64,000 bases of DNA, from contig JBEKKN010000002.1 in the NCBI GenBank assembly GCA_050010675.1, positions 14,277-78,276 of the forward strand. The letters run 5' to 3'. A program made the translations under genes and the position numbers. How positions within the stretch are numbered: the first letter of the stretch is position 1; each line of letters begins with the position of its first letter. The DNA is from Verrucomicrobiota bacterium (GTDB lineage: Bacteria > Verrucomicrobiota > Verrucomicrobiia > Limisphaerales > UBA11358). This document shows, one piece after another, positions 9,714 through 63,598 of the stretch. The notes beneath the pieces are model-generated. The model ran no database searches. It worked only from the letters and a program-made list of their open reading frames with translations, and was not told the origin of the DNA.

Positions 9714-9809
9714 GTGACAGGTGACAGGTGGCAGGTGACAAGAGGCTTCCCGCCCGTCAGTCATCGTGGTTGGTCTCTCTTGTCACACGTCACTTGTCAC
9801 ATGTCACGC
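9714..9809. repeat. Inverted pair of 7-nt-word tracts (gtgacag x4 / gtcacNN x4)
   Basis: Left tract 9714-9741 reads gtgacag gtgacag gtggcag gtgacaa. Right tract 9782-9809 reads gtcacac gtcactt gtcacat gtcacgc. The tracts are complementary, and the right tract ends 2 nt before the purQ ATG. Confidence 0.85.
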
Positions 9810-9811
9810 CC

Positions 9812-10525
9812 ATGAACTTCGCTGTTTTACAATTTCCCGCCTCCAACTGCGACCAGGACGCCATTCACGCCCTGCGCGATGTCTTCGGCCATTCCGCGCG
9901 CTACGTCTGGCACAAGGAAACCGCGCTCGGCGACACCGACGCCGTCATCGTGCCCGGCGGTTTCAGTTACGGCGATTATCTGCGTTGCGGCGCGATTGCG
10001 CGGTTCAGTCCGGTGATGCAGGCGGTGAAACAGTTCGCCGACAACGGCGGCCTGGTGCTCGGCATCTGCAACGGCTTTCAGGTGCTCACGGAAGCCGGCC
10101 TGCTGCCCGGCGCGCTCGTCCGCAACCGCGACCTGCAATTCCATTGTGAACATATTTTCCTGAAGACCGTCACGCCCGACTCGCCGTTTACGAGTAAAAT
10201 TCCCGCGGACAAATCGCTGAAAATTCCCATTGCCCATGGTGAAGGCTGCTATTTCGCCGACGATGAGACGCTGGCAAAACTCAAGGCGAACAACCAGATT
10301 TTGTGGCAATACTGTTCCGTCACCGGCGACGTGACCGAGGGTGCCAACCCGAACGGGTCGCTGCTGAACATTGCCGGCATCTGCAACCAGCGCCGGAACG
10401 TGGCCGGCCTGATGCCGCATCCCGAACGCGCCTGCGAACCGCTGCTCGCCAGCGACGATGGCCGCGGGGTTTTTGAAAGCATGATTGCCGCGTTGCAAAG
10501 GAAAACGGCAGCGAAGGCTGCGTGA
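9812..10525 (+). CDS. purQ: Phosphoribosylformylglycinamidine synthase I (glutaminase subunit)
   Basis: Motifs [32 protein letters not shown] and MPHPER. The ORF-track start at 9728 reads through the repeat; I chose the internal ATG at 9812. Confidence 0.9.
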
Positions 10526-10538
10526 GAAATTTTTCCCC

Positions 10539-12929
10539 ATGACCGAACCCGCCATCACCCCTGAACTGGTCGCCAAACACAATCTCACGCCGGAGGAGTA
10601 TGTCCGTGTCAAAGAAGTCCTCGGGCGCGTGCCGAGCTATACCGAGCTGGGCATTTTTTCGGTGATGTGGAGTGAACATTGCAGCTACAAAAACACCCGC
10701 CCGCTGCTCAAAACCTTTCCCACCAAATCCAGGAAAATCCTCGTCGGCGCGGGCGAAGAAAACGCCGGCATCATTGACATCGGCGACGGCCTGGCCATCG
10801 CGTTCAAGATTGAATCGCATAATCACCCGAGCGCGGTTGAGCCGTTCCAGGGCGCGGCCACGGGCGTCGGCGGCATCGTGCGCGATATTTTTACGATGGG
10901 CGCCCGGCCGATTTGCGCGGTCAATTCATTGCGCTTCGGCCCGATTACCGGGGAAAATGGTGCACAAAGCCAGGTTGCCAATAACAAGCGGCTGTTCTCT
11001 GGCGTCGTCAACGGCATTGCGCATTACGGCAATTGCTTCGGCATCCCGACCATCGCCGGCGAGGTTTACTTCGACAAATCCTACGAGGGCAATCCGCTGG
11101 TGAACGCCTTCTGCCTCGGCGTGCTGCGCCACGAACAAATCGCGCGCGGCGCGGCCAAAGGCATTGGCAATCCCGTTTTTTACGTCGGGCCGCCCACGGG
11201 CCGCGATGGCCTCGCAGGCGCGTCGTTCGCGTCGCAGGACTTGACCGAGGAATCCGCCGAGCAACAGCGCGGCGCGGTGCAGGTGGGCGATCCGTTCATG
11301 GAAAAGCTCGTGTGCGAAGCGTGCCTCGAACTGCTCGCCACCGGTGCGGTCGCGGGCATCCAGGACATGGGCGCGGCCGGCCTGACCTGCTCCACGTGCG
11401 AGACCGCCGCCCGCGCGGGCACGGGCATTGAGATTGAATTGGACAAGGTCCCGCAACGCGCGCCGAACATGACGAGCTACGACCTCATGCTGTCGGAATC
11501 GCAGGAGCGGATGCTCATTATCGTCCACAAGGGCCGTGAAGAGGAAGTGAAGCGAATTTTCGACAAATGGGATTTGCCATGGTCGGAAATCGGTTACGTC
11601 ACCGACACCGGCCGCATGGTGGTGAAACAGCACGGCCAGGTGGTTGCCGATATTCCGGCAAAAAAAATTGCCGACGAATCGCCGGTGTATCAGCGCGATG
11701 CCCGGGAACCGGCGTATTTGAAGGACGTCCGCGCGTTTCGGCTGGACCAAATTCCCGCAACGCAGGATGCCAAGGCCGATCTCCTAAAATTGCTCGCCTG
11801 GCCGACGATTGCGTCGAAGAACTGGGTTTACCGGCAATACGATCATATGGTGCGCGACGGTTCGGCGGTTTGTCCCGGCAGCGACGCAGCGGTGTTGCGC
11901 ATCAAGACCGATTCCTTGCCGGAATTGTCAACCCACAAACCTACGCCGGACAAATACATTGCGCTGACGGTGGATGGCAACGGCGCTTACGTTTACCTCG
12001 ATCCTTACGAAGGCGGGAAAATTGTCGTGACCGAGGCGGCGCGGAATCTGGCCTGTTCCGGCGCGGCGCCGTTGGGCGTGACGGACAACTTGAACTACGG
12101 CAACCCGTTCAAACCGGAACTGTTCTGGCAGCTCAAGGAATCGGTGCGCGGACTGGCCGACGCCTGCCAGGCCTTCAACGCGCCGGTCACCGGCGGCAAT
12201 TGCTCGCTTTACAATCAAAGTCCCGCCGGGCCGATTGACCCCACGCCCACGGTGGCGATGGTCGGCCTCATCGAAAAACCGGAGCACATCACGACGCAAT
12301 GGTTCAAGGATGAGGGCGATGCCGTCATTTTGCTTGGTGAACCAGTGGATACCGACGACCCGCTGCTGGGCCTTGGCGGTTCAGCCTGGTTGCAGGCCTT
12401 GCACGGAAAGAAAACCGGGACGCCGCCACGTTGCGATCTGGAACAAGCGAGAACCTTGCACACCACGCTGCTGGGCCTGATTCAGTCGGGCCTCATCAAG
12501 AGCGCGCATGATTGCAGCGAAGGCGGACTGGCGGTGTGTCTGGCCGAAAGTTGCATCAGCCAGCTGGTGGCGCGCGGAACGCCACGGTTGATGGGCGCGA
12601 CGGTGGATTTGTCCGCGGTAGCGGCACCTCGGCAGAGTGCCGCCGACTCATCCGAAGAAAAGAAGGCGGCGCTCTCCCGAGACACCGCTACGTTACGATT
12701 GGACGCCCTGTTATTCGGCGAAACACAAAGCCGCGTGGTCATCACCTGCCAACCGCTGGATGCGGTGAAGGTGGTGGAACGCGCCAAACTGCTCGGCGTG
12801 CCGGCGGTGACAATCGGCCGGGTGGGCGGTGAGCAATTGGCCATCAAGGCGGGCACCAGTGAAGTCAGCGTGCCGGTGACTGAACTGCACGATCGCTGGT
12901 GGAACGCGATCGCGCGGGCGATGGCGTGA
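10539..12929 (+). CDS. purL: Phosphoribosylformylglycinamidine synthase subunit PurL
   Basis: Motifs EHCSYK, ESHNHPS and [12 protein letters not shown]. The size is about 797 aa from the ATG at 10539. Confidence 0.9.
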
Positions 12930-13056
12930 ATTTCATTTTGAACAAAACGACCGGCCGGACGCTCCATTTTCCTGAAAACGCGATCACGGCCTGCCCGTTG
13001 AACGGATTAACCGCTGGCAATTTGTCGCCGACCGGTTAATCTGACGGGAATTTATC

Positions 13057-14019: not shown

Positions 14020-14101
14020 GCCGCAAATCCTCAACCGGTTGAACCGCTGAATCGGGCGGCCGGTTTGACGATGGGACAATTTAACGATTTAACGAAAATA
14101 A

Positions 14102-17997: not shown

Positions 17998-19989
17998 ATG
18001 CAAGTCACATCACTGTTGAGCCGGCATGAACATGAGCACGGACCCGAATGCGGGTGCGGCCACGATCACGAACACTCGGTAACGCATCTCTGGCAGGCCG
18101 TCTTGGGCGTCGTGCTGGTCATCAATGCCTACGTGGTGGACGCGTTGTTTGGGCAGGGCGGCGCCGTCGCCAGTGCCAGCGCCTGCCTCGGCTCGATCAT
18201 TCTTGGCTACCCCATCGTCGTCACCGCCATCAAGGATTTGCGCGTCGGCCGCCTCAGCATCAATGAACTCGTCGCCATTGCCGTGCTGGCGGCGTTCGCG
18301 TCCGGCAATTACAAGATCGCCGGCATCGTCGCGTTTTTCATGCTCACCGGTGAAATCATCGAGAGCCGCACCGCCGAGGGCGCGCGCGCCTCGATTGAAT
18401 CGCTCATTCAACTCACGCCCACCAAGGCCCGCCGCCTCAAATCGGATGGCAGCGAGGAGGAGGTCGCCGCCAGCGAACTGGCCGTCGGGGACCTGATCCG
18501 CATCCGTCCCGGCGATAACGTCGCGGCGGACGGCGTCATCGTCAGCGGCCAGGGCTCGTTCAATCAGGCCACCATCACCGGCGAATCCCTGCCGGTGGAC
18601 AAAAAGACGGGCGACGAGGTTTTCGCCGGCACCCAAAACCTGACTGGCGTGCTGGAGATCAAGGTCAGCCGCGCCGGCACCGACACAACGCTCGGCCGGG
18701 TGCGCGAGCTGATTCTGGCGGCGGAAAAAACCAAGCTGCCCATCATGAAAATCGTGGACCAGTACATGGGCTTTTATACGCCGCTCGTGCTGGTCATCGG
18801 CGCGCTGGTCTGGGCGTTTACCCACGATTTAAACCGCGTGATTGCCGTGTTCGTGGTTTCCTGCCCGTGCGCTTTCATTCTGGCAACACCGACGGCGATG
18901 GTCGCCGCGCTGTCCGCCGCCGCGCGCCTGGGCATCTTGATCAAAAACGTCGCCGACATCGAACTCGCCGCCCGAATCAACGCCTTTGTATTCGACAAAA
19001 CTGGCACGCTCACCACCGGCCAGCTCGCCGTCAGCCGCCTGGCCCCGGCCGGCGAAATCAAACCTGCCGAACTGCTCCGACTGGCGGCATCGGCCGAAAA
19101 ATACAGCAATCACCCGACGGCCAAGGCACTCGCGCAACTGGCGACAGAAGCGAGCGTGCCGCTCCTCGAACCCAAGGACTTCAGCGAAGCCGCAGGGCGC
19201 GGCGTCAAGGCCCAGGTCCAGGGCACCACCGTGCTCGTCGGACGCGCGCAATGGCTGAAGGACAATGGGGTGACGCAGGATTTTCTCAAATCCGTTGACC
19301 TCAACGAGACCGAGGGGTGGAGTTTGATTTTTGTCGCGCGCGACCATCACTGCGTCGGCTGGATCGGTTTGCAGGACAAAACCCGCGCCGAAGCCAGAGA
19401 ATCCCTGGCCGGATTGAAGGAAAACGGCGTCCGGCGGGTGGCGATGATTTCCGGGGACCGCCAGGCCGTGGTGACGCGGGTGGCGGCGGAAATTGGCTGC
19501 GAAGAGGCCAAGGGCGATTGTTTGCCGCAAAACAAGGTCGAGTTTGTGCGCAGCATGAAGGCCAAAGGTTATCGCGTGGCAGTGGTGGGCGACGGCGTAA
19601 ACGACGCGCCGGCGCTGGCAGCGGGCGACATTGGCATCGCGATGGGCGCGGCGGGCAGCGAAGTGGCCATTCACACCGCGACGATCGCACTGATGAACAA
19701 TGACCTTCGCCGCTTGCCCTTCCTGGTGAAGCTCTCGCGCAGCACCCGGACCGTCATCAACCAGAACTTTCTGTTCGGCCTGCTGTTCATCGTCGTCGGT
19801 CTCACGGTCACGTCGCTGGGCTACATCGGCCCGATTCCCGCGGCCATCCTGCACAACGTCGGTTCGTTGATCGTGATTTTCAACAGCGCCCGGCTCGTGC
19901 GCAAAGGCGAGGAACTGGAACATTACCATCTTGAACCGGTTGAACCTCCGCGCGCCCAGACCGGACAGTTGACGCCCAAGATGGCGTGA
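17998..19989 (+). CDS. Heavy-metal-translocating P1B-type ATPase (Zn/Cd/Co-like)
   Basis: His/Cys-rich N-terminus HEHEHGPECGCGHDHEH, a CPC transmembrane motif, DKTGTLT, GDGVNDAP and TGES. Confidence 0.85.
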   Translation: MQVTSLLSRHEHEHGPECGCGHDHEHSVTHLWQAVLGVVLVINAYVVDALFGQGGAVASASACLGSIILGYPIVVTAIKDLRVGRLSINELVAIAVLAAFASGNYKIAGIVAFFMLTGEIIESRTAEGARASIESLIQLTPTKARRLKSDGSEEEVAASELAVGDLIRIRPGDNVAADGVIVSGQGSFNQATITGESLPVDKKTGDEVFAGTQNLTGVLEIKVSRAGTDTTLGRVRELILAAEKTKLPIMKIVDQYMGFYTPLVLVIGALVWAFTHDLNRVIAVFVVSCPCAFILATPTAMVAALSAAARLGILIKNVADIELAARINAFVFDKTGTLTTGQLAVSRLAPAGEIKPAELLRLAASAEKYSNHPTAKALAQLATEASVPLLEPKDFSEAAGRGVKAQVQGTTVLVGRAQWLKDNGVTQDFLKSVDLNETEGWSLIFVARDHHCVGWIGLQDKTRAEARESLAGLKENGVRRVAMISGDRQAVVTRVAAEIGCEEAKGDCLPQNKVEFVRSMKAKGYRVAVVGDGVNDAPALAAGDIGIAMGAAGSEVAIHTATIALMNNDLRRLPFLVKLSRSTRTVINQNFLFGLLFIVVGLTVTSLGYIGPIPAAILHNVGSLIVIFNSARLVRKGEELEHYHLEPVEPPRAQTGQLTPKMA

Positions 19990-20012
19990 TGCCGCAGCGT
20001 CCGCTTTAGCTT

Positions 20013-20999
20013 ATGCCCGTCACTGAACAAAATCCGCCATCCGCCATCCGTCATCCGCAGTCCGGCGGCGAGGTCGTCGTTTCCGTCCGTGGGCTGACGA
20101 AGGTCTTCAAGGATTTCTGGAACCGTCCGAAGGCCCGCGCGGTGGACAATGTGGATTTTGAAGTGCGACAGGGTGAAGTGTTCGGGCTGCTCGGACCCAA
20201 CGGTTCGGGCAAGTCCACGACGGTGAAGCTGATGCTCGGCTTGCTGTATCCCACCAAGGGGCACATCGAGGTCTTCGGCCATTCACCCCGGCACGTGCAG
20301 ACGAAATCGCGCATCGGCTATCTGCCGGAGGAATCGTATCTCTACCGCTACCTCAACTCGCGCGAGACCCTGGATTTTTTTGGAAATCTCTTTCACCTGC
20401 CCAAGGCCGAACGCCACCGTCGCACGGAGCAATTGCTCGAAATGGTCGGGCTGGGCAAAACCCAGACGCGGGTGATCGGCGAATTTTCCAAGGGCATGCA
20501 GCGCCGCATCGGGCTGGCGCAGGCCCTGATCAACGACCCCGATCTGGTGATTCTGGACGAGCCGACGGCCGGCCTCGATCCGATTGGCTGCCGCGAGGTG
20601 AAGGACTTGATTCTCGCGCTGGCGCGCCGCGGCAAGACGGTGATTCTGAGCAGCCATCTGCTCGCGGACGTGGAGGACGTCTGTGACCGCGTGGTGATTT
20701 ATTACGGCGGCAAAATCCAGGCGATGGGCACGCTCAAGGAACTGCTCGCCACGCCGGACACGCTGCGCATCACGACGCCGGTGCTGCCGCGTGCAGCGGG
20801 CGCGTCAGGCCGCCGCCGAAACGAGCGGCGCGATTTCGGGCGCCCGCGTGGCGCCGTATCTGCGGGCGGGCGCCCAGGAACCGCCGCCGGCCACGGAAAA
20901 AATCCTGGACCGGCTGGCCTTGCCGGAATCTGCCCGGCCGGTGGCCAAGCCACCGACCACCCCGTCGGCGGAACCCGCCGTGAACGAGCAAAAGCTTGA
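20013..20999 (+). CDS. ABC transporter ATP-binding protein; the reading frame probably changes near 20790
   Basis: Walker A GPNGSGKST, signature FSKGMQRR and Walker B LVILDEPT. After ...LRITTPVLPR the frame turns into Arg/Gly-rich junk with poor third-position GC. Confidence 0.8.
   Translation: MPVTEQNPPSAIRHPQSGGEVVVSVRGLTKVFKDFWNRPKARAVDNVDFEVRQGEVFGLLGPNGSGKSTTVKLMLGLLYPTKGHIEVFGHSPRHVQTKSRIGYLPEESYLYRYLNSRETLDFFGNLFHLPKAERHRRTEQLLEMVGLGKTQTRVIGEFSKGMQRRIGLAQALINDPDLVILDEPTAGLDPIGCREVKDLILALARRGKTVILSSHLLADVEDVCDRVVIYYGGKIQAMGTLKELLATPDTLRITTPVLPRAAGASGRRRNERRDFGRPRGAVSAGGRPGTAAGHGKNPGPAGLAGICPAGGQATDHPVGGTRRERAKA
20032..20066. repeat. 7-nt-word tract (atccgcc x5) inside the 5' end of the ABC ATPase ORF
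   Basis: The tract reads atccgcc atccgcc atccgtc atccgca gtccggc. Confidence 0.8.
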
Positions 21000-25310: not shown

Positions 25311-27035
<1,725 letters not shown>

Positions 27036-28475
27036 ATGAGCAAACCGACCAAATCGCAATGGGACTTCGGCGAATTGTTTCCGGCTTCGCCGGGAAACTC
27101 CGGCGCGAACGGTCCGACGGAGTCCCCCAGCGCGGGACGAACGGTTCTGTCCGTCTCGGAACTGACGACACAGGTCAAGCGGATGCTCGAAAAATCGGTC
27201 GGTTCGGTCTGGGTGACGGGCGAGATCACCAATTTGCGGGCGCAGAGTTCCGGTCACATGTACTTCACGCTCAAGGACGCCGGGGCGCAACTGAGTTGCG
27301 TGCTGTTCCGGGGTGAAGCGGTCAGGAACCGCAGCGTGTTGCAGGACGGCCAAAAGCTCCTGCTGCAAGGCGACGTGACGGTTTACGAGGCGCGCGGACA
27401 ATACCAGCTCATCGTGCGGGCGGTGGAGTTGCAGGGCATCGGCGCGCTGCAGATTGCCTTTGAAAAACTGAAGCAAAAGCTCGCGGCGGAAGGATTATTT
27501 GCGCCGGAGCGGAAGCGTCCTCTGCCCGAGTATCCGCAACGCATCGGCCTGGTCACCTCACTGACCGGCGCGGCGATTCGTGATGTGCTGCACGTGGTGC
27601 ACCGGCGGAATCCGGCGCTGGAAATCATTCTCGCGCCGTGCCGCGTGCAAGGTGACGGCGCGGCCGAGGAGATCGCGGCGGCCATCCGGTTGTTGAATGA
27701 GTTCAACACTCAACATTCCACGTTCAACCTTCAACTCATCTTAGTCACTCGCGGTGGCGGTTCGCTGGAGGATTTGTGGGCGTTCAACGAGGAAGCCGTG
27801 GCCCGGGCGATTTTTGAATCGGCCATTCCGGTGGTATCAGCGGTGGGGCACGAGATTGATTTCACCATCAGCGATTTTGTGGCGGACGTGCGCGCGGCCA
27901 CGCCGAGTGCGGCGGCGGAAATCATCACGGAAGGCGTGTTTGCCAGCCGCGAGTTTGTGGCCGAGGCGGCGGGTCTGCTGCGACGAAAAGTCCGGCAACG
28001 ATTGGAAGGCGCGGTCACGGAATTCGAGCAGCTTCAGGGACGCTTGACGCGGGCGCATCCGCGCCGGCGGTTGGATGAATTTCTGCAGCGACTGGATGAT
28101 TTGCAAACCGGCCTGTCGCGTTGCGCGAAACAGGGCGTCAAGGAACGGCAGGTGGCCTGGCAGAACCTGGCGACGCGCTTTTTGCGCGTGCGTCCGGCGC
28201 AATTATTGCGACAGCGGCACGAGCTTTTGAAAGCCAGCCGGCACCGGCTGCGCGAGCTGGCGCAGAACGGTTTGCGCGACCGGCAGAATCGTTTCGGCGC
28301 GACGGAGGCGCGGCTGCGTTTGCTCGGTCCGGAGCAGGTTTTGGCGCGCGGTTATTCCATCACCACCAACGCCGCAACCGGGAAAGTATTGCGCGAGGCT
28401 GCCGAGGTGAAATCCGGACAGCGATTGAAAACGCGGTTGAAGACCGGTGAAATCTTCAGCCGGACCGAGGAATAG
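27036..28475 (+). CDS. xseA: Exodeoxyribonuclease VII large subunit
   Basis: OB-fold N-terminus VWVTGEISN...SGHMYFTLKD, then RGGGSLEDLWAFNEE and a C-terminal coiled coil. Confidence 0.9.
   Translation: MSKPTKSQWDFGELFPASPGNSGANGPTESPSAGRTVLSVSELTTQVKRMLEKSVGSVWVTGEITNLRAQSSGHMYFTLKDAGAQLSCVLFRGEAVRNRSVLQDGQKLLLQGDVTVYEARGQYQLIVRAVELQGIGALQIAFEKLKQKLAAEGLFAPERKRPLPEYPQRIGLVTSLTGAAIRDVLHVVHRRNPALEIILAPCRVQGDGAAEEIAAAIRLLNEFNTQHSTFNLQLILVTRGGGSLEDLWAFNEEAVARAIFESAIPVVSAVGHEIDFTISDFVADVRAATPSAAAEIITEGVFASREFVAEAAGLLRRKVRQRLEGAVTEFEQLQGRLTRAHPRRRLDEFLQRLDDLQTGLSRCAKQGVKERQVAWQNLATRFLRVRPAQLLRQRHELLKASRHRLRELAQNGLRDRQNRFGATEARLRLLGPEQVLARGYSITTNAATGKVLREAAEVKSGQRLKTRLKTGEIFSRTEE
27701..27735. repeat. 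7-nt-word tract (NttcaAc x5) in-frame in xseA
   Basis: The tract reads gttcaac actcaac attccac gttcaac cttcaac. It encodes FNTQHSTFNLQL just before the RGGGS motif. Confidence 0.8.
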
Positions 28476-28809: not shown

Positions 28810-28844
28810 CCAAAACCGAGAACCCAGACCCAAGACCTAAAATT
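28810..28844. repeat. 7-nt-word tract (cNagacc x5) ending 1 nt before the dxs ATG
   Basis: The tract reads ccaaaac cgagaac ccagacc caagacc taaaatt. Confidence 0.7.
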
Positions 28845-47172: not shown

Positions 47173-47248
47173 GTCCCCGTAGCTCAAATGGATAGAGCAG
47201 CGGTTTCCTAAACCGTTGATCCCAGTTCAATTCCGGGCGGGGACGCCA
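47173..47248 (+). tRNA. tRNA-Arg (anticodon CCU), CCA encoded
   Basis: My manual fold gives acceptor gtccccg/cggggac, D arm gctc/gagc and anticodon arm gcggt-ttCCTaa-accgt. The T arm has loop ttcaatt and one A-C mismatch. Total length 76 nt. Confidence 0.9.
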
Positions 47249-51295: not shown

Positions 51296-54211
<2,916 letters not shown>

Positions 54212-56595: not shown

Positions 56596-56612
56596 AATCC
56601 ATAGTGTTAGGT

Positions 56613-57173
56613 TTAAGGCGTGACCTTAATTCCCCGCTGCCACAAATCGAAGTGATACAGCGCGACGACGACGAGGGAGTGGCCGATTTTTTCGTCGGCG
56701 ACGAGTTTCGGAATATCCGACACCGGCACCAGCCGTGTCACCAGGTCCTCGCCGTGATCCCAATCGACCTCATGCTGCAACCGGCAATTTTCAATCAGCA
56801 CGGTAAAGGTGGTGTTGCTCAGGATGGCCGGATTTGACCAGATTTTGCCCAGCAGCCGCGCGTTTTCGCCGGCATAACCGGTTTCCTCGCGCAATTCGCG
56901 CACGGCCGTCGCCACCGGGTCGGTCTCACCCGCGTCCATCATGCCGCCGGGAATCTCCAGTTCCACCGTATTCGAGCCGTGCCGGAATTGCTCGACCATC
57001 ACCAGCTTTTGATCGGGCGTGACGGCGATGACGTTGACCCAGTTGACGCTGTCGAGGACGAAGAAGTCGTGTTCCCGGCCGGTGCGCGGCGAGATTTTTA
57101 CGTCCGAACGCAGTTTGAAGATGCGGAAATCGCCGATGGGCGTCGAACGGACTTTTTTCCAAGGCCTGATCAT
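56613..57173 (-). CDS. NUDIX hydrolase (ADP-ribose pyrophosphatase-like)
   Basis: Nudix box GGMMDAGETDPVATAVRELREETGY. Confidence 0.85.
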   Translation of the reverse strand: MIRPWKKVRSTPIGDFRIFKLRSDVKISPRTGREHDFFVLDSVNWVNVIAVTPDQKLVMVEQFRHGSNTVELEIPGGMMDAGETDPVATAVRELREETGYAGENARLLGKIWSNPAILSNTTFTVLIENCRLQHEVDWDHGEDLVTRLVPVSDIPKLVADEKIGHSLVVVALYHFDLWQRGIKVTP

Positions 57174-57206
57174 TTACGATTGATGATTTACGATTTACGA
57201 TGGTGG
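57172..57206. repeat. 7-nt-word tract (atttacg x5) abutting the NUDIX start codon
   Basis: The tract reads atttacg attgatg atttacg atttacg atggtgg on the + strand, directly 5' of the minus-strand ATG at 57173-57171. Confidence 0.8.
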
Positions 57207-57238
57207 TCAACACATACCGCCCGCGCGCGGTTCAATCA

Positions 57239-57427: not shown

Positions 57428-57437
57428 AGAAATATTC

Positions 57438-57528: not shown

Positions 57529-57533
57529 GAAAC

Positions 57534-58055
57534 TCATTTCGCGGTGGCGGGAACGATTTTGACACTGACGACGCCGACCCGCTTCTGCGGCTTGCTCGGC
57601 TCGCCGGAACCGCTCGCCCCCACGGGCGTGCCGGCGATTTTCGCCAGCACGTCATCGCCTTTGATCAATTTGCCGAACGCGGTGTATTGGCGGTCGAGAA
57701 AGGAGGCGTCGCCGTCGCAGATGAAAAACTGGCTGCCGGCGGAATCGGGGTTGGCACTGCGCGCCATGGAAATGACGCCCCGCTGGTGCGAGCGGTCGTT
57801 GAACTCGGCCTTGATCTGATAGCCGGGTCCGCCGGTGCCCCAGTGATGTTCCTTGGCGGCATCCTTGGTCAGCGGATCGCCACCCTGAATCATGAAACCC
57901 TTGATGATGCGGTGAAAACAGGTGCCGTCGTAAAAACCCTTTTGGGCGAGGGTCTTGAAGTTCTCGACCGTCTTGGGCGCGACGTCGGGCCAGAATTCAA
58001 TGACCAGTTCGCCTTCGGTGGTGGTGATTTGGGCCAGTTCGCTCATAAAATTCAA
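57534..58055 (-). CDS. ppiB: Cyclophilin-type peptidyl-prolyl cis-trans isomerase (cytoplasmic form)
   Basis: Motifs FHRIIKGFMIQGGDP, SMARS..PDSAGSQFFI and YTAFG. Confidence 0.9.
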   Translation of the reverse strand: MNFMSELAQITTTEGELVIEFWPDVAPKTVENFKTLAQKGFYDGTCFHRIIKGFMIQGGDPLTKDAAKEHHWGTGGPGYQIKAEFNDRSHQRGVISMARSANPDSAGSQFFICDGDASFLDRQYTAFGKLIKGDDVLAKIAGTPVGASGSGEPSKPQKRVGVVSVKIVPATAK

Positions 58056-58062
58056 GATGGGT

Positions 58063-58725
58063 TTACTTCACGGCGTCGGCAGGAACGATTTTTATGCTGA
58101 TGACACCGATGCGATTGAGGGGCGCGCTGTTTTCACCCGAAGGGCTTGGCCCAACGGGCGTATCACCAATTTTTTGGAGCACCTCAACACCCTTGATCAA
58201 GTGACCAAACGCGGTGTATTGATGGTCCAGAAACGATGCGTCGCCGTCGCAGATGAAAAACTGGCTGCCGGCGGAATTCGGATCCGAACTGCGCGCCATG
58301 GAAATGACCCCCAGCTGATGGGAGTGGTTGTTGAACTCGGCGTTGATGCTGTAGCCCGGCCCGCCCGTGCCCCAAGCCGCCTTCGCCGCCGGCATTTTGG
58401 TCAACGGGTCGCCGCCCTGGACCATAAAACCCTTGATGATGCGATGGAAACAGGTGCCGTTGTAAAATCCTCGTTCGGCGAGTTTCTTGAAATTCGCAAC
58501 GGTATTGGGAGCGGCGTCGGACCAGAAGGCGATCACCATTTCACCTTCGGTGGTGTTGATGACGGCGACTTCGTTGGCAGCCGGTGGTGGGGCCATCGGC
58601 ACGGTGGCCTGGGAGTTCGTATTGGTGTCAGCCGCTGAAGCCGTTGCCAGCCCCGCAACCAGACCGATGGCGCAAATTAAATTCCATGCTTTCATGGGGG
58701 AAGAATTTTCCATGCGCACGACCAA
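58063..58725 (-). CDS. ppiA: Cyclophilin-type peptidyl-prolyl cis-trans isomerase (secreted form)
   Basis: It has the same motifs as the adjacent paralogue plus an N-terminal signal peptide MKAWNLICAIGLVAGLATASA. Confidence 0.9.
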   Translation of the reverse strand: MVVRMENSSPMKAWNLICAIGLVAGLATASAADTNTNSQATVPMAPPPAANEVAVINTTEGEMVIAFWSDAAPNTVANFKKLAERGFYNGTCFHRIIKGFMVQGGDPLTKMPAAKAAWGTGGPGYSINAEFNNHSHQLGVISMARSSDPNSAGSQFFICDGDASFLDHQYTAFGHLIKGVEVLQKIGDTPVGPSPSGENSAPLNRIGVISIKIVPADAVK

Positions 58726-58740
58726 AAGTCACGCCCGGAA

Positions 58741-59820: not shown

Positions 59821-59838
59821 TTTTATGGGCCTTTGTTT

Positions 59839-60306
59839 TTACGGCCGGCGGAAACGATTTCGTTCCGCCCGGTTGTAATTTCGCAATTCGTCCTGCAATT
59901 CCACCAGCGCGCCCTCGATCGTGCGAATAAAATTCGCGCAACTCGACGCCAGGCCGCCCATGCCCGTCACCGTATCGCGTTCGGCATGATCGTCCGTCAC
60001 CACCAGCACTTCGCCATAATCCTGAAACCGGTGCGCCGCGCGTTCGATCATTTCATCGGCGGTCTGGCCCGCGCGCGAAAATAAAACCTCCACCGCCGTG
60101 CCGGATTCCTTCGCCGGGATGTGGGGCGGCGCCCCCGCGCCGTCAAAAAAGACCGTGATCGGCTCGCCGGTCGCGTCGTGATAGCGGGTCAGGACGTGAA
60201 TCAGTTCGTCACGCGCCCGCGCCGAATGCCGCGGTTGGCCCGGAGCCAGCTCCGGCCAGTTATGCAACAGGCTGTAGCCGTCCACCAGGATGCGCGCCAA
60301 CGCCAT
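59839..60306 (-). CDS. NYN domain ribonuclease-like protein (YacP/Rae1 family)
   Basis: Motifs ILVDGYSLLH, ITVFFDG, VLFSRAGQTADEMIE and VVTDD. I chose the ATG at 60306; the longer ORF reads through the repeat. Confidence 0.75.
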   Translation of the reverse strand: MALARILVDGYSLLHNWPELAPGQPRHSARARDELIHVLTRYHDATGEPITVFFDGAGAPPHIPAKESGTAVEVLFSRAGQTADEMIERAAHRFQDYGEVLVVTDDHAERDTVTGMGGLASSCANFIRTIEGALVELQDELRNYNRAERNRFRRP

Positions 60307-60330
60307 GTCGCCAAGGTAGTCAAAAGGGCC

Positions 60331-60397
60331 CAAAGTCCAAAGCCCAAAGTCGCGGCTGGCTTGACTTTGGACTTTGGACTTTGGACTGTAGACTTGA
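60331..60397. repeat. Hairpin of 7-nt-word tracts (caaagNc x3 / gactttg x5) in the divergent yacP-lspA spacer
   Basis: Left tract caaagtc caaagcc caaagtc, then an 11-nt loop. Right tract gactttg gactttg gactttg gactgta gacttga. The right tract ends immediately before the lspA ATG at 60398. Confidence 0.85.
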
Positions 60398-60928
60398 ATG
60401 TCTGCCGCCCAATCCATTTTTCAGGTCTCGAACCGCCGCATCGCCGTCATTGCGCTGGTGGTATTCGTGCTCGACCAGTTCACCAAATGGCTGGTGCTGC
60501 GGATGCTGCCGCCGGGTTACGAAAAAATCATCATCAATGGCTTTTTCAAATTCGTTCATTGGGGCAACACCGGCGCGGCCTGGAGCCTCTTTCGCGGCAA
60601 TAACAACACGCTCGCACTCGTCGCGTTGCTCGCCCTGGTGGCGCTGTTTCTCACGCGGCATCATTTCAGTTCAAACACCCTCCCCGGCCAGATCGCCTTC
60701 GGGCTGATTTTTGGCGGCATCGCCGGAAACCTCACCGACCGCCTCCTGCCGGGACGACACGAGGTCATCGATTTCATCTATTTTTACATCCAGCAACGCA
60801 GTGGTGATGAAGTCGGCTTCCCGGCGTTCAATGTCGCCGACACCGCGATTTGCACCGGGGTGGCGCTAATTTTTCTCATCACCTGGAAAAGCGAGCATAC
60901 AACAAAAAACGTGACCAGTGACGTGTGA
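60398..60928 (+). CDS. lspA: Lipoprotein signal peptidase (signal peptidase II)
   Basis: Motifs [28 protein letters not shown] and [11 protein letters not shown]. Confidence 0.85.
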
Positions 60929-61003
60929 CCAGTGACATGAGCCATTCCCCACCGCCACCCGCCCGGCACTTCCTGCCGCCTTTCACTTGTCACCGGTCAC
61001 GCT
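60911..61003. repeat. 7-nt-word tracts (gtgacNN x4-5 and tcacNNg x3) spanning the lspA stop and the rluD leader
   Basis: The first tract reads gtgacca gtgacgt gtgacca gtgacat gagccat and encodes the last 5 residues (VTSDV) and the stop codon of lspA. Its partial inverted partner tcacttg tcaccgg tcacgct lies at 60983-61003. Confidence 0.8.
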
Positions 61004-61010
61004 GAAAGCA

Positions 61011-61958
61011 ATGTCCAGTCGCACGGAAAGTTTAACGGTTGAAAAATCGCTCCCGTCCGAGCGGCTGGACACGTTTCTGCGCCGGCAATTTCCCGCCGTC
61101 TCCCGGGTCGCGCTGCAGCGGTTGATGGAAGCCGGCCACATTCGTGTCAACAGCCGGACGGTCAAACCGACGCACGCGCCGCGCGCGGGTGAGGAAATCG
61201 AAATTCACTGGCCGGAAGCCACGCCCGCCACCGCGCAGCCCGAGGACATTCCGTTTGACGTTCTTTTCGAGGACCGGTCGCTGCTGGTGCTGAACAAACC
61301 CGCCGGACTGGTCGTGCATCCAGCCGCCGGAAATGAGGAACACACCCTGGTCAACGCGCTGCTGCACCACTGCGGTGACGAACTCAGCGGCATTGGCGGC
61401 GTGGCGCGACCGGGCATTGTCCACCGGCTCGACAAGGAAACCAGCGGCTGCCTGGTCGTCGCCAAAAATGATGAAACGCACGTGGCGCTGTCCGCGCAGT
61501 TCGCCGGGCGGAAAGTCAGAAAAATTTACCACGCCATTGTGTGCGGCGAACCCGTCCGCGAGGCGGGCGAAATCCACGCGGCCATCGCCCGCCATCCGTC
61601 GCATCGCAAACGCATGGCCGTCCAGGATGATCATTCCGGCCGCGCCGCGCACACGAGCTGGCATGTGCTCAAGCGACTGAACGCCGCCACGCTGGTGGAG
61701 GCGCAATTGCACACGGGCCGCACGCACCAAATCCGGGTGCATTTCCAATTTCTCGGCCATCCGCTGGCGGGCGACGCCACCTACGGCGCGCGGCAAAACC
61801 GGAGGCTCACGGAACTGACCGGCTACGAACCGCCGCGCGTGATGCTGCATGCGCGCGAGCTTTCATTCATCCATCCGCGAACCGGGAAACTCATGAGCTT
61901 TGAAGCGCCGCTGCCAAAGGACTTTCAGAAGGCACTGAAATCTTTGACAGTCAGGTAG
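61011..61958 (+). CDS. rluD: RluA-family 23S rRNA pseudouridine synthase (RluD-like)
   Basis: S4 domain (RLDTFL...), HRLDKETSGCLVVAK and QLHTGRTHQIRVH. Confidence 0.85.
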   Translation: MSSRTESLTVEKSLPSERLDTFLRRQFPAVSRVALQRLMEAGHIRVNSRTVKPTHAPRAGEEIEIHWPEATPATAQPEDIPFDVLFEDRSLLVLNKPAGLVVHPAAGNEEHTLVNALLHHCGDELSGIGGVARPGIVHRLDKETSGCLVVAKNDETHVALSAQFAGRKVRKIYHAIVCGEPVREAGEIHAAIARHPSHRKRMAVQDDHSGRAAHTSWHVLKRLNAATLVEAQLHTGRTHQIRVHFQFLGHPLAGDATYGARQNRRLTELTGYEPPRVMLHARELSFIHPRTGKLMSFEAPLPKDFQKALKSLTVR

Positions 61959-62027
61959 GGTCGCCCCGCCGTTTGTCTTCAGAAAATTTATTCGCCTGCG
62001 GCGCATAATTTTCGCATCCTGCGGGCG

Positions 62028-62909
62028 ATGAAATCCATGACGGGCTACGGCCGCGGCGGATGCGCGCGAAACGGCTTCAAAATCACGGTCGAGTTGAGCG
62101 CGGTGAACCGCCGGCAATCCGAGATTTCCCTGAATCTGCCGCGGGAACTGGAAATGCTGGAGGCGCCCATTCGCGACGCCATCAATGCCAAAATCGCGCG
62201 CGGCCGCGTCGTGGCACGGGTTTCAGTCCACGCCGGCGCCGGCAAATTGTCCGCCCGGATGCACCTCAATCTCCCGCTCGCCCGGGCCTATGCCACCGAA
62301 CTGAACCGCCTCGCCCGGCAGCTCAAGCTCACGGGCGAAGTGACGCTGGACCAGCTGGTGCGCGCGCCGGGCGTTCTCCAGACGGACGAGGAACTGGTGG
62401 AAGCCGAAAAAATCTGGCCGGTCATTGAACAGGCGTTGAAACCGGCGCTCACCGCGCTGGTGAAAATGCGCGAGCGTGAAGGCGCGCACCTCGCGCGGGA
62501 CCTGGCCGCGCGCATCGCCCTCATGAGCAAAGCCGTCGGAAAAATTCAGAAACAGGCGCCGCAGACGGTGGAAAATTACCGTCAGCAATTGATCGGGCGC
62601 ATCCAGAGCGCCGGCATTGAAAACCTGGCGCCGGATGACGAGCGGCTCCTGAAGGAAATTGTACTGTTCGCCGACCGATCGGACATCTCGGAGGAACTGA
62701 CACGGCTGCAAAGCCATTTCCAGCAGTTCGAGGATTGCCGGAAATCGAAGGAACCGGTTGGACGCACCCTGGATTTTCTGGCGCAGGAGATGAACCGTGA
62801 AGTCAATACCATCGGCTCAAAAGCCAACGACGCCGTCATCGCGCGCGAGGTCGTCACCCTGAAGGCGGAACTGGAAAAATTTCGCGAACAGGCGCAGAAC
62901 GTCGAATGA
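62028..62909 (+). CDS. yicC: YicC/YloC family stress-induced endoribonuclease
   Basis: Motifs MKSMTGYGR and the C-terminal GRTLDFLAQEMNREVNTIGSKAND. Confidence 0.85.
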   Translation: MKSMTGYGRGGCARNGFKITVELSAVNRRQSEISLNLPRELEMLEAPIRDAINAKIARGRVVARVSVHAGAGKLSARMHLNLPLARAYATELNRLARQLKLTGEVTLDQLVRAPGVLQTDEELVEAEKIWPVIEQALKPALTALVKMREREGAHLARDLAARIALMSKAVGKIQKQAPQTVENYRQQLIGRIQSAGIENLAPDDERLLKEIVLFADRSDISEELTRLQSHFQQFEDCRKSKEPVGRTLDFLAQEMNREVNTIGSKANDAVIAREVVTLKAELEKFREQAQNVE

Positions 62910-63598
62910 AAACCCGAAGCCAGCAGCCAGCAGCCAGAGGTCGGAAGTCAAAAGCTGGAAATCCGACATCGGACCTCGGTTCGCTGGCGTCTGATCTCCG
63001 ACCCCTGCTGATTCTTATTTCCGCGCCATCGGGCGGCGGCAAGACCACGCTCTGCCAGCAATTGCTGGCGGCGCGACCGGACATGACCCGCGCCATCACC
63101 TGCACCACCCGTCCGCCGCGACCGGGAGAAACGAATGGCGTGGATTATCATTTTCTTGAGACGGCGGAATTTGAACGGCGCGTCCAGGCGGGTGAGTTTA
63201 TCGAGCACGCCACGGTCTTTGGCCGGAGTTATGGCACGTTGCGCTCCGAACTGTTGGACAAACTGCAGGCGGGCCGGGACGTGCTGCTCAACGTGGACGT
63301 GCAGGGCGCGGCGGCGATCCGCGACCGCGCGCGGACCGAGCCGGAATTGCAACGTGCGCTGGTGACGGTATTTCTGACGCCGCCGTCGGTTGCCGTGCTG
63401 GCGGAACGTTTGAACAAGCGCAACACGGAGGCGGCGGCGGAAATCCAAAAACGCCTGGCCCTGGCGCGGCAGGAAATCGCGCAGTGGCGGCATTTTGATT
63501 ACCTTTTGCTCAGTTCAACGATCCCGGAGGATCTGCGCCGGATGCTGGTGATTGTTGAGGCGGAGAAGATGCGCACGGCGCGGACGCCGGCGTTTTAA
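62906..63598 (+). CDS. gmk: Guanylate kinase with a 30-odd-aa N-terminal extension encoded by heptad tracts
   Basis: P-loop SAPSGGGKTTL, then TTRPPRPGE.NGVDYHF, GRSYGT and LERRL-type C-terminus. The only ATG/GTG/TTG start in frame upstream of the P-loop is the ATG at 62906 (ATGA overlap with yicC). Confidence 0.9.
   Translation: MKTRSQQPAARGRKSKAGNPTSDLGSLASDLRPLLILISAPSGGGKTTLCQQLLAARPDMTRAITCTTRPPRPGETNGVDYHFLETAEFERRVQAGEFIEHATVFGRSYGTLRSELLDKLQAGRDVLLNVDVQGAAAIRDRARTEPELQRALVTVFLTPPSVAVLAERLNKRNTEAAAEIQKRLALARQEIAQWRHFDYLLLSSTIPEDLRRMLVIVEAEKMRTARTPAF
62916..63006. repeat. 13 consecutive G-phased heptads in the 5' end of gmk
   Basis: The heptads read gaagcca gcagcca gcagcca gaggtcg gaagtca aaagctg gaaatcc gacatcg gacctcg gttcgct ggcgtct gatctcc gacccct. 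An internal hairpin pairs gaggtcggaagtc with gacatcggacctc. Confidence 0.75.

What the first reader, a model, noticed from the sequence alone, without database searches (positions are those of the whole stretch)
9714..63006. Family of approx. 35-nt tracts built from five tandem 7-nt words, with a different word at every locus
By eye I find at least 11 loci with 21-35-nt tracts, plus one 91-nt run, made of 3-5 tandem heptamers. In each tract a 3-5-nt core is conserved and the remaining positions drift. The tracts are gtgacag x4 (9714), gtcacNN x4 (9782), atccgcc x5 (20032), acatNca x5 (25718) and caatcgg x5 (25875). They continue with aactctc x5 (26843), NttcaAc x5 (27701), cNagacc x5 (28810), gtccNNN (53941) and gacNNNN (53993). 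The rest are atttacg x5 (57172), caaagNc / gactttg (60331 / 60363), gtgacNN (60911), tcacNNg (60983) and 13 G-phased heptads (62916-63006). The word is locus-specific, but the 7-nt period and the 5-unit length recur. Some tracts form inverted, hairpin-capable pairs (9714/9782, 53941/53993, 60331/60363, 60911/60983). Others are single or paired with a non-complementary tract (25718/25875). They lie at gene boundaries or in-frame within conserved enzymes. A period of 7 is not a codon multiple, so selection on a peptide repeat does not explain them. REP/BIME, MITE, ERIC or CRISPR elements as I know them share sequence between copies, whereas here only the architecture is shared. By inference, one possibility is that they are footprints of a reiterative templated-synthesis or slippage process. 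Others are hairpin-type transcription or translation punctuation, or arrays for a modular nucleic-acid-binding protein.
Basis: seen in the sequence. Interest (0 to 1): 0.75.

Follow-up and report, generated by a model that had tools for sequence, protein, structure and literature searches.

The report
Five-unit heptanucleotide repeat arrays in Verrucomicrobia
The window, from a soil or peat Verrucomicrobium, really is peppered with short tandem arrays of 7-base words about 32 bases long; these belong to the already described but unexplained class of bacterial heptanucleotide repeats, and here they occupy conserved permissive spots between and inside housekeeping genes.

Summary
Period-7 tandem tracts are strongly enriched in the window: 7 tracts at score >=12, against 0 for every other period except the 14-nt harmonic. 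They are also enriched in 80 related Pedosphaerales/Limisphaerales loci (125 tracts against at most 14 for any other period in 1.3 Mb). An E. coli control has none.

The tracts lie in operon spacers, 5' leaders, N-terminal extensions and interdomain linkers, where they are translated as peptides with a 7-residue period.

Three sites in RimO and one in an ABC ATPase carry tracts in dozens of orthologs with different but in-register related words. This indicates concerted evolution at persistent hot spots.

Near-identical strains show an exact 14-nt indel, a 7-nt indel and a two-unit conversion, so slipped-strand dynamics operate.

The words are not fully locus-specific. The vocabulary is limited and shares a loose A-R-T-C core. 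Arrays typically start and end on that core, giving five cores and a sharp length mode of about 32 nt. This was replicated in independent metagenome and IMG/VR samples. Half of the closely adjacent tracts form complementary hairpin pairs.

The class is known: heptanucleotide long simple sequence repeats, cyanobacterial STRR, and the Geobacter 4-5x heptamer elements. The mechanism behind the 7-nt unit and the five-core size remains open.

The parts
9714..9740 (.). GTGACAG x3.9. Left arm of an inverted pair in the purS-purQ spacer.
   Evidence: TRF; lag scan; hairpin 9706-9814 with dG -55.5 and z -6.8; PurS and PurQ assigned by Pfam; identical in 10 strains.
9779..9807 (.). GTCACNN x3.9. Right arm of the pair, ending 4 nt before the purQ ATG at 9812.
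20032..20064 (+). ATCCGCC x~4.7, read in frame as codons 7-17 of an ABC-transporter ATPase (peptide NPPSAIRHPQS).
   Evidence: Orthologous N-termini in at least 10 related genomes carry AATCCGC, AAATCGK, CACTCCG or CCGCAAT tracts.
25717..25750 (+). AACATYC x4.9 in the RimO linker after the UPF0004 domain (hot-spot site 1).
   Evidence: Thirty-four orthologs carry a tract here with different words.
25875..25906 (+). CAATCGG x4.6 in the RimO linker before the radical-SAM domain (hot-spot site 2).
   Evidence: Twenty-three orthologs carry tracts here. The array starts and ends on CAAT.
26843..26874 (+). AACTCTC x4.6 in the RimO linker before the TRAM domain (hot-spot site 3).
   Evidence: Fifteen orthologs carry in-register related words. 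Strain L089 shows the same TC->CA change in units 2 and 4.
27701..27735 (+). Degenerate (G)TTCAAC x5 in a variable loop of exonuclease VII large subunit.
   Evidence: L001 has a perfect TTCAACC x4.9 at the same site.
28810..28840 (+). Degenerate AACCSAG-type tract that fills the 40-nt xseB-dxs spacer.
   Evidence: (lag-7 identity 0.75).
53941..53968 (+). GTCCNNN x4. First half of a weak inverted pair inside an approximately 20-aa insert in the PriA C-terminal domain.
   Evidence: lag-7 identity 0.67, p<0.0005; z -2.8; the PriA_C match spans 115 aa against a 95-position profile.
53993..54020 (+). GACNNNN x4. Second half of the PriA pair.
57172..57201 (-). ATTTACG x4.3 (CGTAAAT on the gene strand), abutting the start codon of a NUDIX gene.
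   Evidence: Strains L093 and L095 lack exactly 14 nt (2 units) here.
60330..60351 (.). CCAAAGY x3.1. Left arm of a hairpin in the divergent yacP/lspA spacer.
   Evidence: Invariant in 10 strains.
60363..60395 (.). GACTTTG x4.7. Right arm, ending 3 nt before the lspA ATG.
   Evidence: This is the commonest word in the clade and in metagenomes.
60911..60937 (.). GTGACNN x3.7. Left arm of a pair in the lspA-rluD spacer; it overlaps the lspA stop codon.
60981..61003 (.). NNGTCAC x~3. Right arm, ending 8 nt before the rluD ATG.
   Evidence: p=0.0015.
62916..63006 (+). Thirteen G-phased heptads (AGCCAGC x3, then degenerate units) forming the 30-aa N-terminal extension of guanylate kinase at the yicC/gmk junction.
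   Evidence: lag-7 identity 0.60; the Pfam match starts at residue 35. L004 and L032 have a GAATGAA/CATTCTT hairpin pair at the same junction. Strain L094 has a 7-nt deletion here.

Best explanation
The tracts are heptanucleotide simple-sequence arrays, the bacterial 'heptamer long SSR / STRR-like' class, in a Pedosphaerales/Limisphaerales verrucomicrobium.

Shown: arrays change by whole-unit steps. Events seen are indels of 7 and 14 nt and spread of a variant to alternate units. Arrays are kept periodic while their word drifts, which is concerted evolution. The propensity to carry arrays differs between lineages.

Inferred: the arrays arise and are homogenised by slipped-strand misalignment and intra-array conversion in a 7-nt register, seeded on a short A-R-T-C-like direct repeat. 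They survive only where extra sequence is tolerated: operon spacers, leaders just upstream of start codons, N-terminal extensions and interdomain linkers. In coding sequence they are simply translated as hydrophilic peptides with a 7-residue period, so selection on the peptide filters which words and which strand are allowed at each site.

Array size is held at five cores plus four spacers (about 32 nt) by a constraint not yet identified. One possibility is rapid contraction once misaligned homology exceeds about 28 nt.

Inverted pairs are the same arrays duplicated in opposite orientation. Their arms would be kept complementary by template switching or by selection for a hairpin.
For: - Enrichment specific to period 7: in the window; in 1.3 Mb of related genomes, 125 tracts against at most 14 for any other period; none in an E. 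coli control.
- Unit-step events between strains of 96-99.98% identity: a 14-nt deletion at 57172 in two strains, a 7-nt deletion in the gmk run, and the same dinucleotide change in units 2 and 4 at 26843. About 3 indel events fall in 409 tract nt, against 25 gapped positions in 16.9 kb elsewhere.
- Period-14 substructure is common (tract lists).
- Hot spots with word turnover: three RimO linkers, the ABC ATPase N-terminus and the yicC-gmk junction.
- Words at one site are related in register. Mean Hamming distance is 2.96 against 5.07 out of register at site 3, 3.99 against 5.04 at site 1, and 4.26 against 4.84 at site 2.
- Genome-level propensity: 0.74 tracts per 10 kb outside RimO in loci whose RimO has a tract, against 0.28 in loci without one; p=9e-4.
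- Site-specific word composition matches linker amino-acid preferences: K/S/Q-rich at site 1, P/S-rich at site 2.
- Substitution polymorphism in tracts is 3.2%, equal to the regional average and below third codon positions at 5.6%.
- Published precedent for heptamer excess, with a polymerase-slippage proposal.
Against: - A plain slippage birth-death process predicts many 2-3-unit arrays and a smooth tail. Instead there is no excess at 14-16 nt. There is a sharp mode at 31-33 nt, almost no arrays of 26-28 nt when seeded with three perfect units, and a collapse above 35 nt in this clade.
- Array ends are phase-specific. Among AATCCGC arrays, 78% start on (C)AAT or AATC and 76% end on CAAT or AATC. 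Among CCAAAGT arrays, 30 of 84 end on GTC.
- The vocabulary is limited and shares a loose consensus: information content 5.38 bits against a null of 4.04 +/- 0.17.
- Inverted pairs are far too frequent for chance: 10 of about 20 close pairs.
- Five of six intergenic tract units in the window end within 10 nt of a start codon.
- Most tracts show no length polymorphism among 10 strains.

These features hint at a ruler or a binding partner that the slippage model does not supply.
Confidence: 0.55

Rival explanations
1. The arrays are binding sites for an oligomeric or multi-domain protein that binds single-stranded nucleic acid. Such a protein would read a short core every 7 nt and ignore the spacer. 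HutP does this with XAG-N4 repeats, and cold-shock or S1-type OB folds cover about 7 nt each. Five cores would be the full site. The arrays would then act in translation initiation, RNA chaperoning or attenuation. Hairpin pairs would be switchable structures that the protein opens.
For: - Five-core architecture with a sharp 32-nt mode, seen in three independent samples.
- Arrays begin and end on the same A-R-T-C-like core.
- Words share a loose consensus.
- Many intergenic arrays abut start codons.
- Precedents: HutP binds three XAG motifs with sequence-independent 4-nt spacers, in 7-mer units. The B. subtilis CspB heptamer consensus GTCTTTG/T is one base from the commonest word here, GACTTTG. 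Cold-shock proteins were already suggested as binders for TAACTGA heptamer repeats.
Against: - Within arrays, the putative core phases are not better conserved than the spacer phases. Mismatch rates are 5.5-6.6% at the T-C-S phases against 3.7-5.8% elsewhere.
- Many arrays lie inside coding sequence, where the strand is dictated by the peptide.
- The tracts show no lower substitution polymorphism than the regional average.
- No candidate protein was identified.
- The core is very loose; about a third of the window's words do not fit it.
Confidence: 0.2
2. The inverted pairs, and possibly single arrays as well, act as REP-like RNA or DNA hairpin punctuation. They would be stable stem-loops within operons that protect upstream mRNA, direct processing, or occlude the downstream start region. 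The heptamer periodicity would be only a by-product of how the arms are generated.
For: - Strong predicted hairpins lie exactly in the purS-purQ, yacP/lspA and lspA-rluD spacers.
- Complementary-word pairs recur in related genomes with gaps of 13-59 nt.
- The yicC-gmk junction holds a hairpin pair in L004 and L032.
- Both arms keep the same word despite word turnover.
- The hairpins are invariant in 10 strains.
- Inverted heptamer pairs are also reported in Xanthomonas.
Against: - Most tracts are solitary and cannot fold on themselves.
- No T-run follows the stems, so they are not intrinsic terminators (sequence).
- There is no Rfam match.
- The 60911 and PriA pairs fold only weakly, at z -2.5 and -2.8.
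- Compensatory changes could not be demonstrated from the strain data.
Confidence: 0.15
3. The arrays are footprints of a dedicated enzymatic process. The process would write a patch of fixed length, about 32 nt, by copying a local 7-nt template repeatedly. Candidates are a reverse-transcriptase or primase-like stuttering activity, or a nicking or HUH enzyme acting at RTC cores. Repeated insertion and excision of an element with 7-bp target duplications is an alternative.
For: - Fixed patch length that is not an integer number of units.
- At RimO site 3, a conserved ancestral non-periodic 11-aa segment (ETDxHTAQLKGRY) is replaced by a periodic 12-aa segment rather than simply interrupted.
- Presence is patchy at lineage level.
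- The same hot spots also hold palindromic in-frame mini-elements in other genomes.
- A RAYT-like Y1 domain flanked by GC-rich inverted hairpins sits inside priA in this window.
Against: - No element, terminal repeat or enzyme gene is associated with the tracts.
- In-register relatedness of words at a site argues for descent with modification rather than repeated de novo writing.
- The events observed between strains are simple unit indels and conversions.
- The link to the Y1 domain is pure co-occurrence in one window.
Confidence: 0.07
4. The tracts are chance patterns or assembly artefacts.
For: None found.
Against: - Shuffle controls and other-period controls exclude chance.
- The same tracts are present base for base in independent assemblies from JGI, ENA and NCBI.
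Confidence: 0.01

Closest known systems
Heptanucleotide long simple sequence repeats of prokaryotes (Mrazek, Guo & Shah 2007, as summarised in PMC4679880 and PMC4692102)
   Same: Both are tandem 7-nt units over-represented relative to other unit sizes. Distribution across lineages is patchy. Many different words occur. No function is known, and polymerase slippage in a 7-nt register has been proposed.
   Different: - Many of the arrays here sit in frame inside housekeeping genes, whereas that survey noted that coding-region repeats are mostly codon multiples.
- The arrays here persist at orthologous hot spots with word turnover.
- They show a sharp five-core (about 32 nt) size and phase-specific ends.
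Geobacter metallireducens elements of four or five tandem heptanucleotides (PMC2700814)
   Same: The architecture is the same, with 4-5 units. [quoted passage not shown] They have been interpreted as possible regulatory RNA elements or regulator sites.
   Different: Each Geobacter family has one consensus word (GGGACCG or MTYCTGA) in 16-49 copies. Here there are dozens of words with only a loose common core.
Cyanobacterial STRR heptamers and Nostoc GGGGAYT / Xanthomonas GGGAATC repeats (PMC4692102)
   Same: These are also heptamer tandem arrays. They are mostly intergenic. Length and sequence vary between related species at the same intergenic position. Occasional inverted pairs are capable of forming stem-loops.
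   Different: Those arrays are G-rich, can form quadruplexes and reach more than 20 units. The arrays here are A/C-rich on the sense strand, are capped near five units in this clade and are often coding.
Beggiatoaceae/cyanobacterial TAACTGA direct repeats (PMC4679880)
   Same: They have 2-6 copies, lie directly upstream of start codons, and are occasionally translated in reverse orientation. Their phylogenetic spread is wide and unexplained.
   Different: They use a single word that carries stop codons in the forward orientation. The arrays here use many words free of stop codons.
REP/BIME/REPIN elements
   Same: The inverted pairs are intergenic, occupy spacers within operons, and form stable hairpins.
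   Different: There is no shared sequence between copies, the arms are themselves tandem repeats, and no demonstrated partner transposase exists.
HutP XAG-N4 RNA sites and CspB heptamer binding (PMC2425495, PMC1904285)
   Same: Both show a 7-nt register in which a short core is read and the spacer is free. The CspB consensus GTCTTTG/T resembles GACTTTG.
   Different: This is only a resemblance in format. There are three units per HutP face, against five here, and no binding was tested.
Rickettsia palindromic elements (from my own knowledge, not checked here)
   Same: Both are selfish or neutral DNA tolerated in frame within conserved proteins, at surface loops.
   Different: Those elements are 100-150-nt palindromic mobile elements with a shared sequence, not tandem heptamers.

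Membership tests
Heptanucleotide long simple sequence repeats (prokaryotic LSSR) | Head-to-tail copies of a 7-nt unit. | tested here: met
   TRF; lag scans.
Heptanucleotide long simple sequence repeats (prokaryotic LSSR) | Arrays longer or more frequent than expected from composition, and in excess over other unit sizes. | tested here: met
   Dinucleotide shuffles and period spectrum.
Heptanucleotide long simple sequence repeats (prokaryotic LSSR) | Evolution by gain or loss of whole units (slipped-strand behaviour). | tested here: met
   14-nt and 7-nt indels and a two-unit conversion between strains. Most sites were nevertheless invariant.
Cyanobacterial STRR | Specific heptamer families (for example CCCCAGT, TTGGTCA, CAACAGT; recalled from memory) in heterocystous cyanobacteria. 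| tested here: not met
   The organism is a verrucomicrobium. None of the 76 canonical words is an STRR word.
Geobacter-type 4-5x heptanucleotide elements | Four or five tandem heptamers, located within and between genes. | tested here: met
   Length mode of 4.4-4.7 units; coding and intergenic positions.
Geobacter-type 4-5x heptanucleotide elements | One consensus word shared by all copies of a family. | tested here: not met
   76 canonical words among 157 tracts, with only a loose consensus.
REP/BIME/REPIN | Imperfect palindrome able to form a hairpin in an intergenic position. | tested here: met
   Met for the inverted pairs only.
REP/BIME/REPIN | Sequence consensus shared between dispersed copies. 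| tested here: not met
   The pairs use different words. Only the two GTGAC pairs resemble each other, and no GTGAC array was found in 90 other loci.
REP/BIME/REPIN | Cognate RAYT transposase acting on the repeats. | not testable with these tools
   A Y1_Tnp domain lies inside PriA, but no link to the tracts can be tested.
Phase-variable contingency loci | Repeat-number changes switch a gene's reading frame or promoter on and off within populations. | tested here: not met
   Coding tracts are identical in length in all strains at 96-99.98% identity, and they lie in housekeeping genes. The one 7-nt coding deletion, in L094, is accompanied by a downstream compensating change.
CRISPR arrays | Identical repeats of 24-48 nt separated by unique spacers of similar length. 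| tested here: not met
   The units are contiguous 7-mers.
Known structured RNA families (Rfam 15) | Match to a curated covariance model at gathering score. | tested here: not met
   The only hit in the window is a tRNA at 47173-47245.
Phased-core RNA sites of oligomeric binders (HutP/TRAP type) | Core conserved and spacer free within an array. | tested here: inconclusive
   Array ends fall on the core. However, within-array mismatch rates are not lower at the core phases.
Phased-core RNA sites of oligomeric binders (HutP/TRAP type) | A cognate protein that binds the array. | not testable with these tools
   This needs biochemistry or whole-genome phylogenetic profiling.

The most novel reading that the evidence does not exclude
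The arrays are not mere slippage debris but a defined element: five A-R-T-C-like cores phased at 7 nt, about 32 nt in all. A trans-acting system would write or maintain them, and it would be present in some lineages and absent in close relatives. That system could be a ruler-like single-strand binding protein, or a nicking or primase-type enzyme. The same system would then underlie the long-unexplained excess of heptamer repeats in many bacterial phyla and in some phage-like contigs.
Probability: 0.15. Interest if true: 0.8.

Novelty: new member of a known kind. Interest (0 to 1): 0.5.

Why it matters
Why 7-nt units dominate long simple repeats in many bacteria has been an open question since the cyanobacterial STRR reports and the 2007 survey.

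This lineage gives a clean handle on it, in three ways:
- There are dozens of orthologous hot spots where arrays persist while their word turns over.
- The five-core size of about 32 nt, with phase-specific ends, was replicated in metagenomes with GC content from 23 to 70%.
- Closely related lineages differ in whether they carry arrays, so phylogenetic profiling for a responsible factor becomes feasible.

There are also two practical consequences. Non-codon-multiple repeats are routinely translated as linker peptides in housekeeping enzymes, which matters for annotation and for alignment-based phylogeny. These arrays also create N-terminal extensions and fill operon spacers next to start codons.

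Tried and rejected
- Rfam scan of the window: only a tRNA was found, so the hairpin pairs are not a described RNA family.
- Search for further GTGAC-type arrays in 90 related loci: none were found, so this is not a dispersed family within reach.
- Core-versus-spacer conservation within arrays: core phases are not less variable, so this gives no support for selection on the core.
- Orientation of solitary tracts relative to transcription: the A-rich strand is mostly the sense strand. This matches the general sense-strand A>T skew and peptide constraints, so the test is uninformative.
- XseA ortholog comparison for presence or absence: only 4 loci keep rimO-xseA synteny, which is too few.
- Intrinsic-terminator reading of the pairs: rejected, because no T-run follows the stems.
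- Target-site-duplication or mobile-element footprint: no associated element or terminal repeats were seen.
- CRISPR and phase-variation readings: rejected (see the membership test).
- The Mrazek 2007 paper itself is not held. It is cited through two papers that summarise it.
- Literature search for heptamer repeats in Verrucomicrobia: nothing relevant was found.
- The first Pfam calls failed on wrong coordinates and were repeated successfully.

Full report

Yes.

An independent lag-match scan finds 7 tracts with score >=12 at period 7. It finds none at any other period from 3 to 15 except three at the 14-nt harmonic. At a lower threshold there are 12 period-7 tracts, against a mean of 1.8 (maximum 6) in 30 dinucleotide-preserving shuffles.

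The degenerate tracts are also real. At 53941, 53993, 60983, 28810, 27701 and the 13-heptad run 62916-63006, lag-7 identity is 0.53-0.79 while other lags stay near 0.25, with shuffle p <= 0.0015.

A 50-kb stretch of E. coli K-12 scanned in the same way has no period-7 tract.

The tracts are not assembly artefacts. They are identical in independent JGI, ENA and NCBI assemblies of the same species.

**2. Where are the tracts?**

The organism is a member of Verrucomicrobiota, Pedosphaerales/Limisphaerales. Pfam annotation and the ORF maps give the following positions:

- The 9714/9782 pair fills the purS-purQ spacer.
- 20032 encodes residues 7-17 of an ABC ATPase.
- 25717, 25875 and 26843 lie in three interdomain linkers of the methylthiotransferase RimO.
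- 27701 lies in a loop of exonuclease VII large subunit.
- 28810 fills the xseB-dxs spacer.
- 53941/53993 lie in an insert in the PriA C-terminal domain.
- 57172 abuts the start codon of a NUDIX gene.
- The 60330/60363 pair fills the divergent yacP/lspA spacer.
- The 60911/60983 pair fills the lspA-rluD spacer.
- 62916-63006 forms the 30-residue N-terminal extension of guanylate kinase.

All of these are places where extra sequence is tolerated. In coding regions the 7-nt repeat is read through all three frames, giving peptides with a 7-residue period such as NSQLSTL or NPQSAIR.

**3. Hairpins.**

The 9706-9814 and 60322-60400 regions fold into long perfect stems. The first has z -6.8; the second has z -5.7 on the + strand and -8.3 on the - strand. 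The 60905-61014 and PriA pairs fold weakly, at z -2.5 and -2.8.

Across the window and 80 related loci, about 20 adjacent tract pairs have a gap <= 60 nt. Ten of these have reverse-complementary words with at most one mismatch. The chance expectation is about 1% per pair.

None of the pairs matches an Rfam family. None is followed by a T-run.

**4. A property of the clade, with persistent hot spots.**

In 80 loci around RimO orthologs (1.30 Mb), period 7 gives 125 tracts against 0-14 for every other period.

Three positions in RimO carry tracts in 34, 23 and 15 orthologs respectively, with many different words. The ABC ATPase N-terminus behaves in the same way, and so does the yicC-gmk junction.

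Words at one site are related when compared in register. At site 3 the mean Hamming distance is 2.96 in register against 5.07 out of register. At site 1 the values are 3.99 against 5.04, and at site 2 they are 4.26 against 4.84. The words therefore descend from one another. The arrays are kept periodic while the word drifts, which is concerted evolution.

At site 3, many lineages keep a conserved non-periodic segment (ETDxHTAQLKGRY). In other lineages a periodic segment one residue longer replaces it.

Word composition follows the amino-acid taste of each linker, so peptide selection filters the words.

Lineages differ in propensity. Loci whose RimO has a tract carry 0.74 further tracts per 10 kb, against 0.28 in loci whose RimO has none (p = 9e-4).

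**5. Microevolution.**

Thirty contigs of the same species, at 96-99.98% identity, were recovered through exact matches to XseB, LspA and PurS. Most tracts are invariant in them. The events seen were:

- an exact 14-nt (two-unit) deletion in the 57172 tract in two strains;
- a 7-nt deletion with a downstream compensating change in the gmk run;
- the same TC->CA change in units 2 and 4 of the 26843 tract.

Substitution polymorphism in tracts is 3.2%. This equals the regional mean and is lower than at third codon positions, where it is 5.6%. Indel events are strongly concentrated in tracts.

Period-14 substructure is frequent.

This is slipped-strand and conversion behaviour, but at a modest rate. 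These are not contingency loci.

**6. Features that simple slippage does not explain.**

(a) Size. In this clade the excess of period-7 tracts is absent at 14-16 nt, flat from 20 to 34 nt, and collapses above 35 nt. Perfect arrays peak at 31 nt.

A metagenome scan seeded with only three perfect CCAAAGT units returned more than 120 hits. In the 80 loci fetched (GC 35-69%), array lengths peak sharply at 29-34 nt: 49 of 88 arrays, with the mode at 32. None falls at 26-28 nt, and a thin tail reaches 129 nt.

The same mode at 32-33 nt appears for AATCCGC and CGTAAAT arrays in IMG/VR contigs. In all three sets, the flanking DNA is itself rich in other period-7 tracts: 81-105 against at most 28 for any other period.

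(b) Ends. Arrays start and end on the same part of the word. Among AATCCGC arrays, 78% start with CAAT or AATC and 76% end with CAAT or AATC. Among CCAAAGT arrays, 30 of 84 end on GTC and 42 of 84 start with (A)GTCC. The typical array is therefore five cores plus four spacers.

(c) Vocabulary. The 116 independent word-site combinations use only 76 canonical words; random expectation is 109. The commonest word, AAAGTCC/GGACTTT, occurs at 7 independent sites.

After optimal rotation and strand choice, the words share a loose consensus C-S-N-A-A-R-T. That is an A-R-T-C core with an A-rich spacer. Information content is 5.38 bits against 4.04 +/- 0.17 for random words.

Against a binding-core reading, within-array mismatches are not rarer at the core phases.

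**7. What is known.**

Heptanucleotide repeats were reported as the most abundant long simple-sequence-repeat class in most prokaryotic genomes examined. Polymerase slippage in a 7-nt register was proposed as the cause (Mrazek et al. 2007, as summarised).

Related cases:
- cyanobacterial heptamer repeats, and Xanthomonas GGGAATC arrays with inverted pairs and species-level turnover;
- Beggiatoaceae TAACTGA arrays of 2-6 copies just upstream of start codons;
- Geobacter metallireducens elements of four or five tandem heptanucleotides within and between genes.

I found no description for Verrucomicrobia.

Two formal analogues exist for a register of 7-nt core plus spacer. HutP sites are XAG-N4, in 7-mer units, with sequence-independent spacers. 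The CspB heptamer consensus GTCTTTG/T is one base from GACTTTG. These are leads, not tests.

**8. Verdict.**

The tracts are a new lineage-level instance of the known heptanucleotide simple-repeat class. The evidence is good that they evolve by unit slippage and conversion at permissive sites.

The five-core size, the phase-specific ends, the limited vocabulary and the abundance of hairpin pairs are not accounted for by that model. They keep open a binding-array reading or a dedicated-process reading.

My confidence is about 0.55 in the mutational explanation, about 0.35 combined in the functional array or hairpin rivals, and less than 0.1 in a dedicated writing enzyme.

Noticed in passing
window 51950-52549 (inside the priA ORF 51296-54211): PriA carries an in-frame IS200/RAYT-like Y1_Tnp domain (Pfam residues 259-345; HUH motif 'HVHLL', 'YIWNNP') between its 3'-DNA-binding domain and the helicase core. 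The insert is flanked by GC-rich hairpins at 51950-51994 and 52499-52549. These two flanks are also complementary to each other (duplex -66.7 kcal/mol). The arrangement looks like a RAYT-with-REP unit domesticated or tolerated inside a replication-restart helicase.
   Followed up: partly
window 12621-12704 (PurL C-terminal region); L004, L007, L009, L013 and L021 at RimO site 2: A palindromic in-frame mini-element is translated as '[24 protein letters not shown]' in PurL; its hairpin has dG -41 kcal/mol. It recurs as 'SRQSAAIPSVKETSAALYRDAAT' at the RimO site-2 hot spot in other genomes. A second GC-rich palindromic insert ('SSAGVPPAPGQRGK..GRRDACA') occupies RimO site 3 in L005, L007 and L013. 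The same permissive sites therefore take heptamer arrays or palindromic inserts.
   Followed up: partly
window 25311-27035 and all 80 orthologs: RimO in this order is about 560-580 aa long. It has a clade-specific insert of about 100 aa between the UPF0004 and radical-SAM domains. The insert contains a conserved mini-domain (GKITGRLAELEK...LRGTDKFGKTKTVV) bracketed by the two variable linkers.
   Followed up: no
window 45927-46750 (ORF 44040-46970): There are two overlapping long tandem repeats (243 and 285 nt, 75-82% identity). They lie in the coiled-coil part of a 976-aa response-regulator-domain protein.
   Followed up: no
window 57646-58028 and 58178-58560: Two adjacent peptidyl-prolyl isomerase genes are about 81% identical at the DNA level, indicating a tandem gene duplication. 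One strain (L094) has a rearranged version of this region.
   Followed up: no
L081 1-2190, corresponding to window 18615-20791: In a strain otherwise 99.5% identical, the segment covering the end of the P-type ATPase and the start of the ABC ATPase is only 87.6% identical, with 44 gaps. This suggests recombinational replacement. The heptamer tract at the ABC N-terminus is degenerate there.
   Followed up: partly
L231-L327 (IMG/VR contigs): Contigs classified as viral, including some giant-virus MAG bins, carry CGTAAAT and AATCCGC arrays with the same 32-nt mode. They also carry many other period-7 tracts. Either these are misbinned bacterial DNA, or the process also shapes phage genomes in these hosts.
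   Followed up: no
L123, L125, L154, L156 and L266 (metagenome and IMG/VR loci): A minority of arrays of the same words reach 90-169 nt. The five-unit cap is therefore typical but not universal across source genomes.
   Followed up: no
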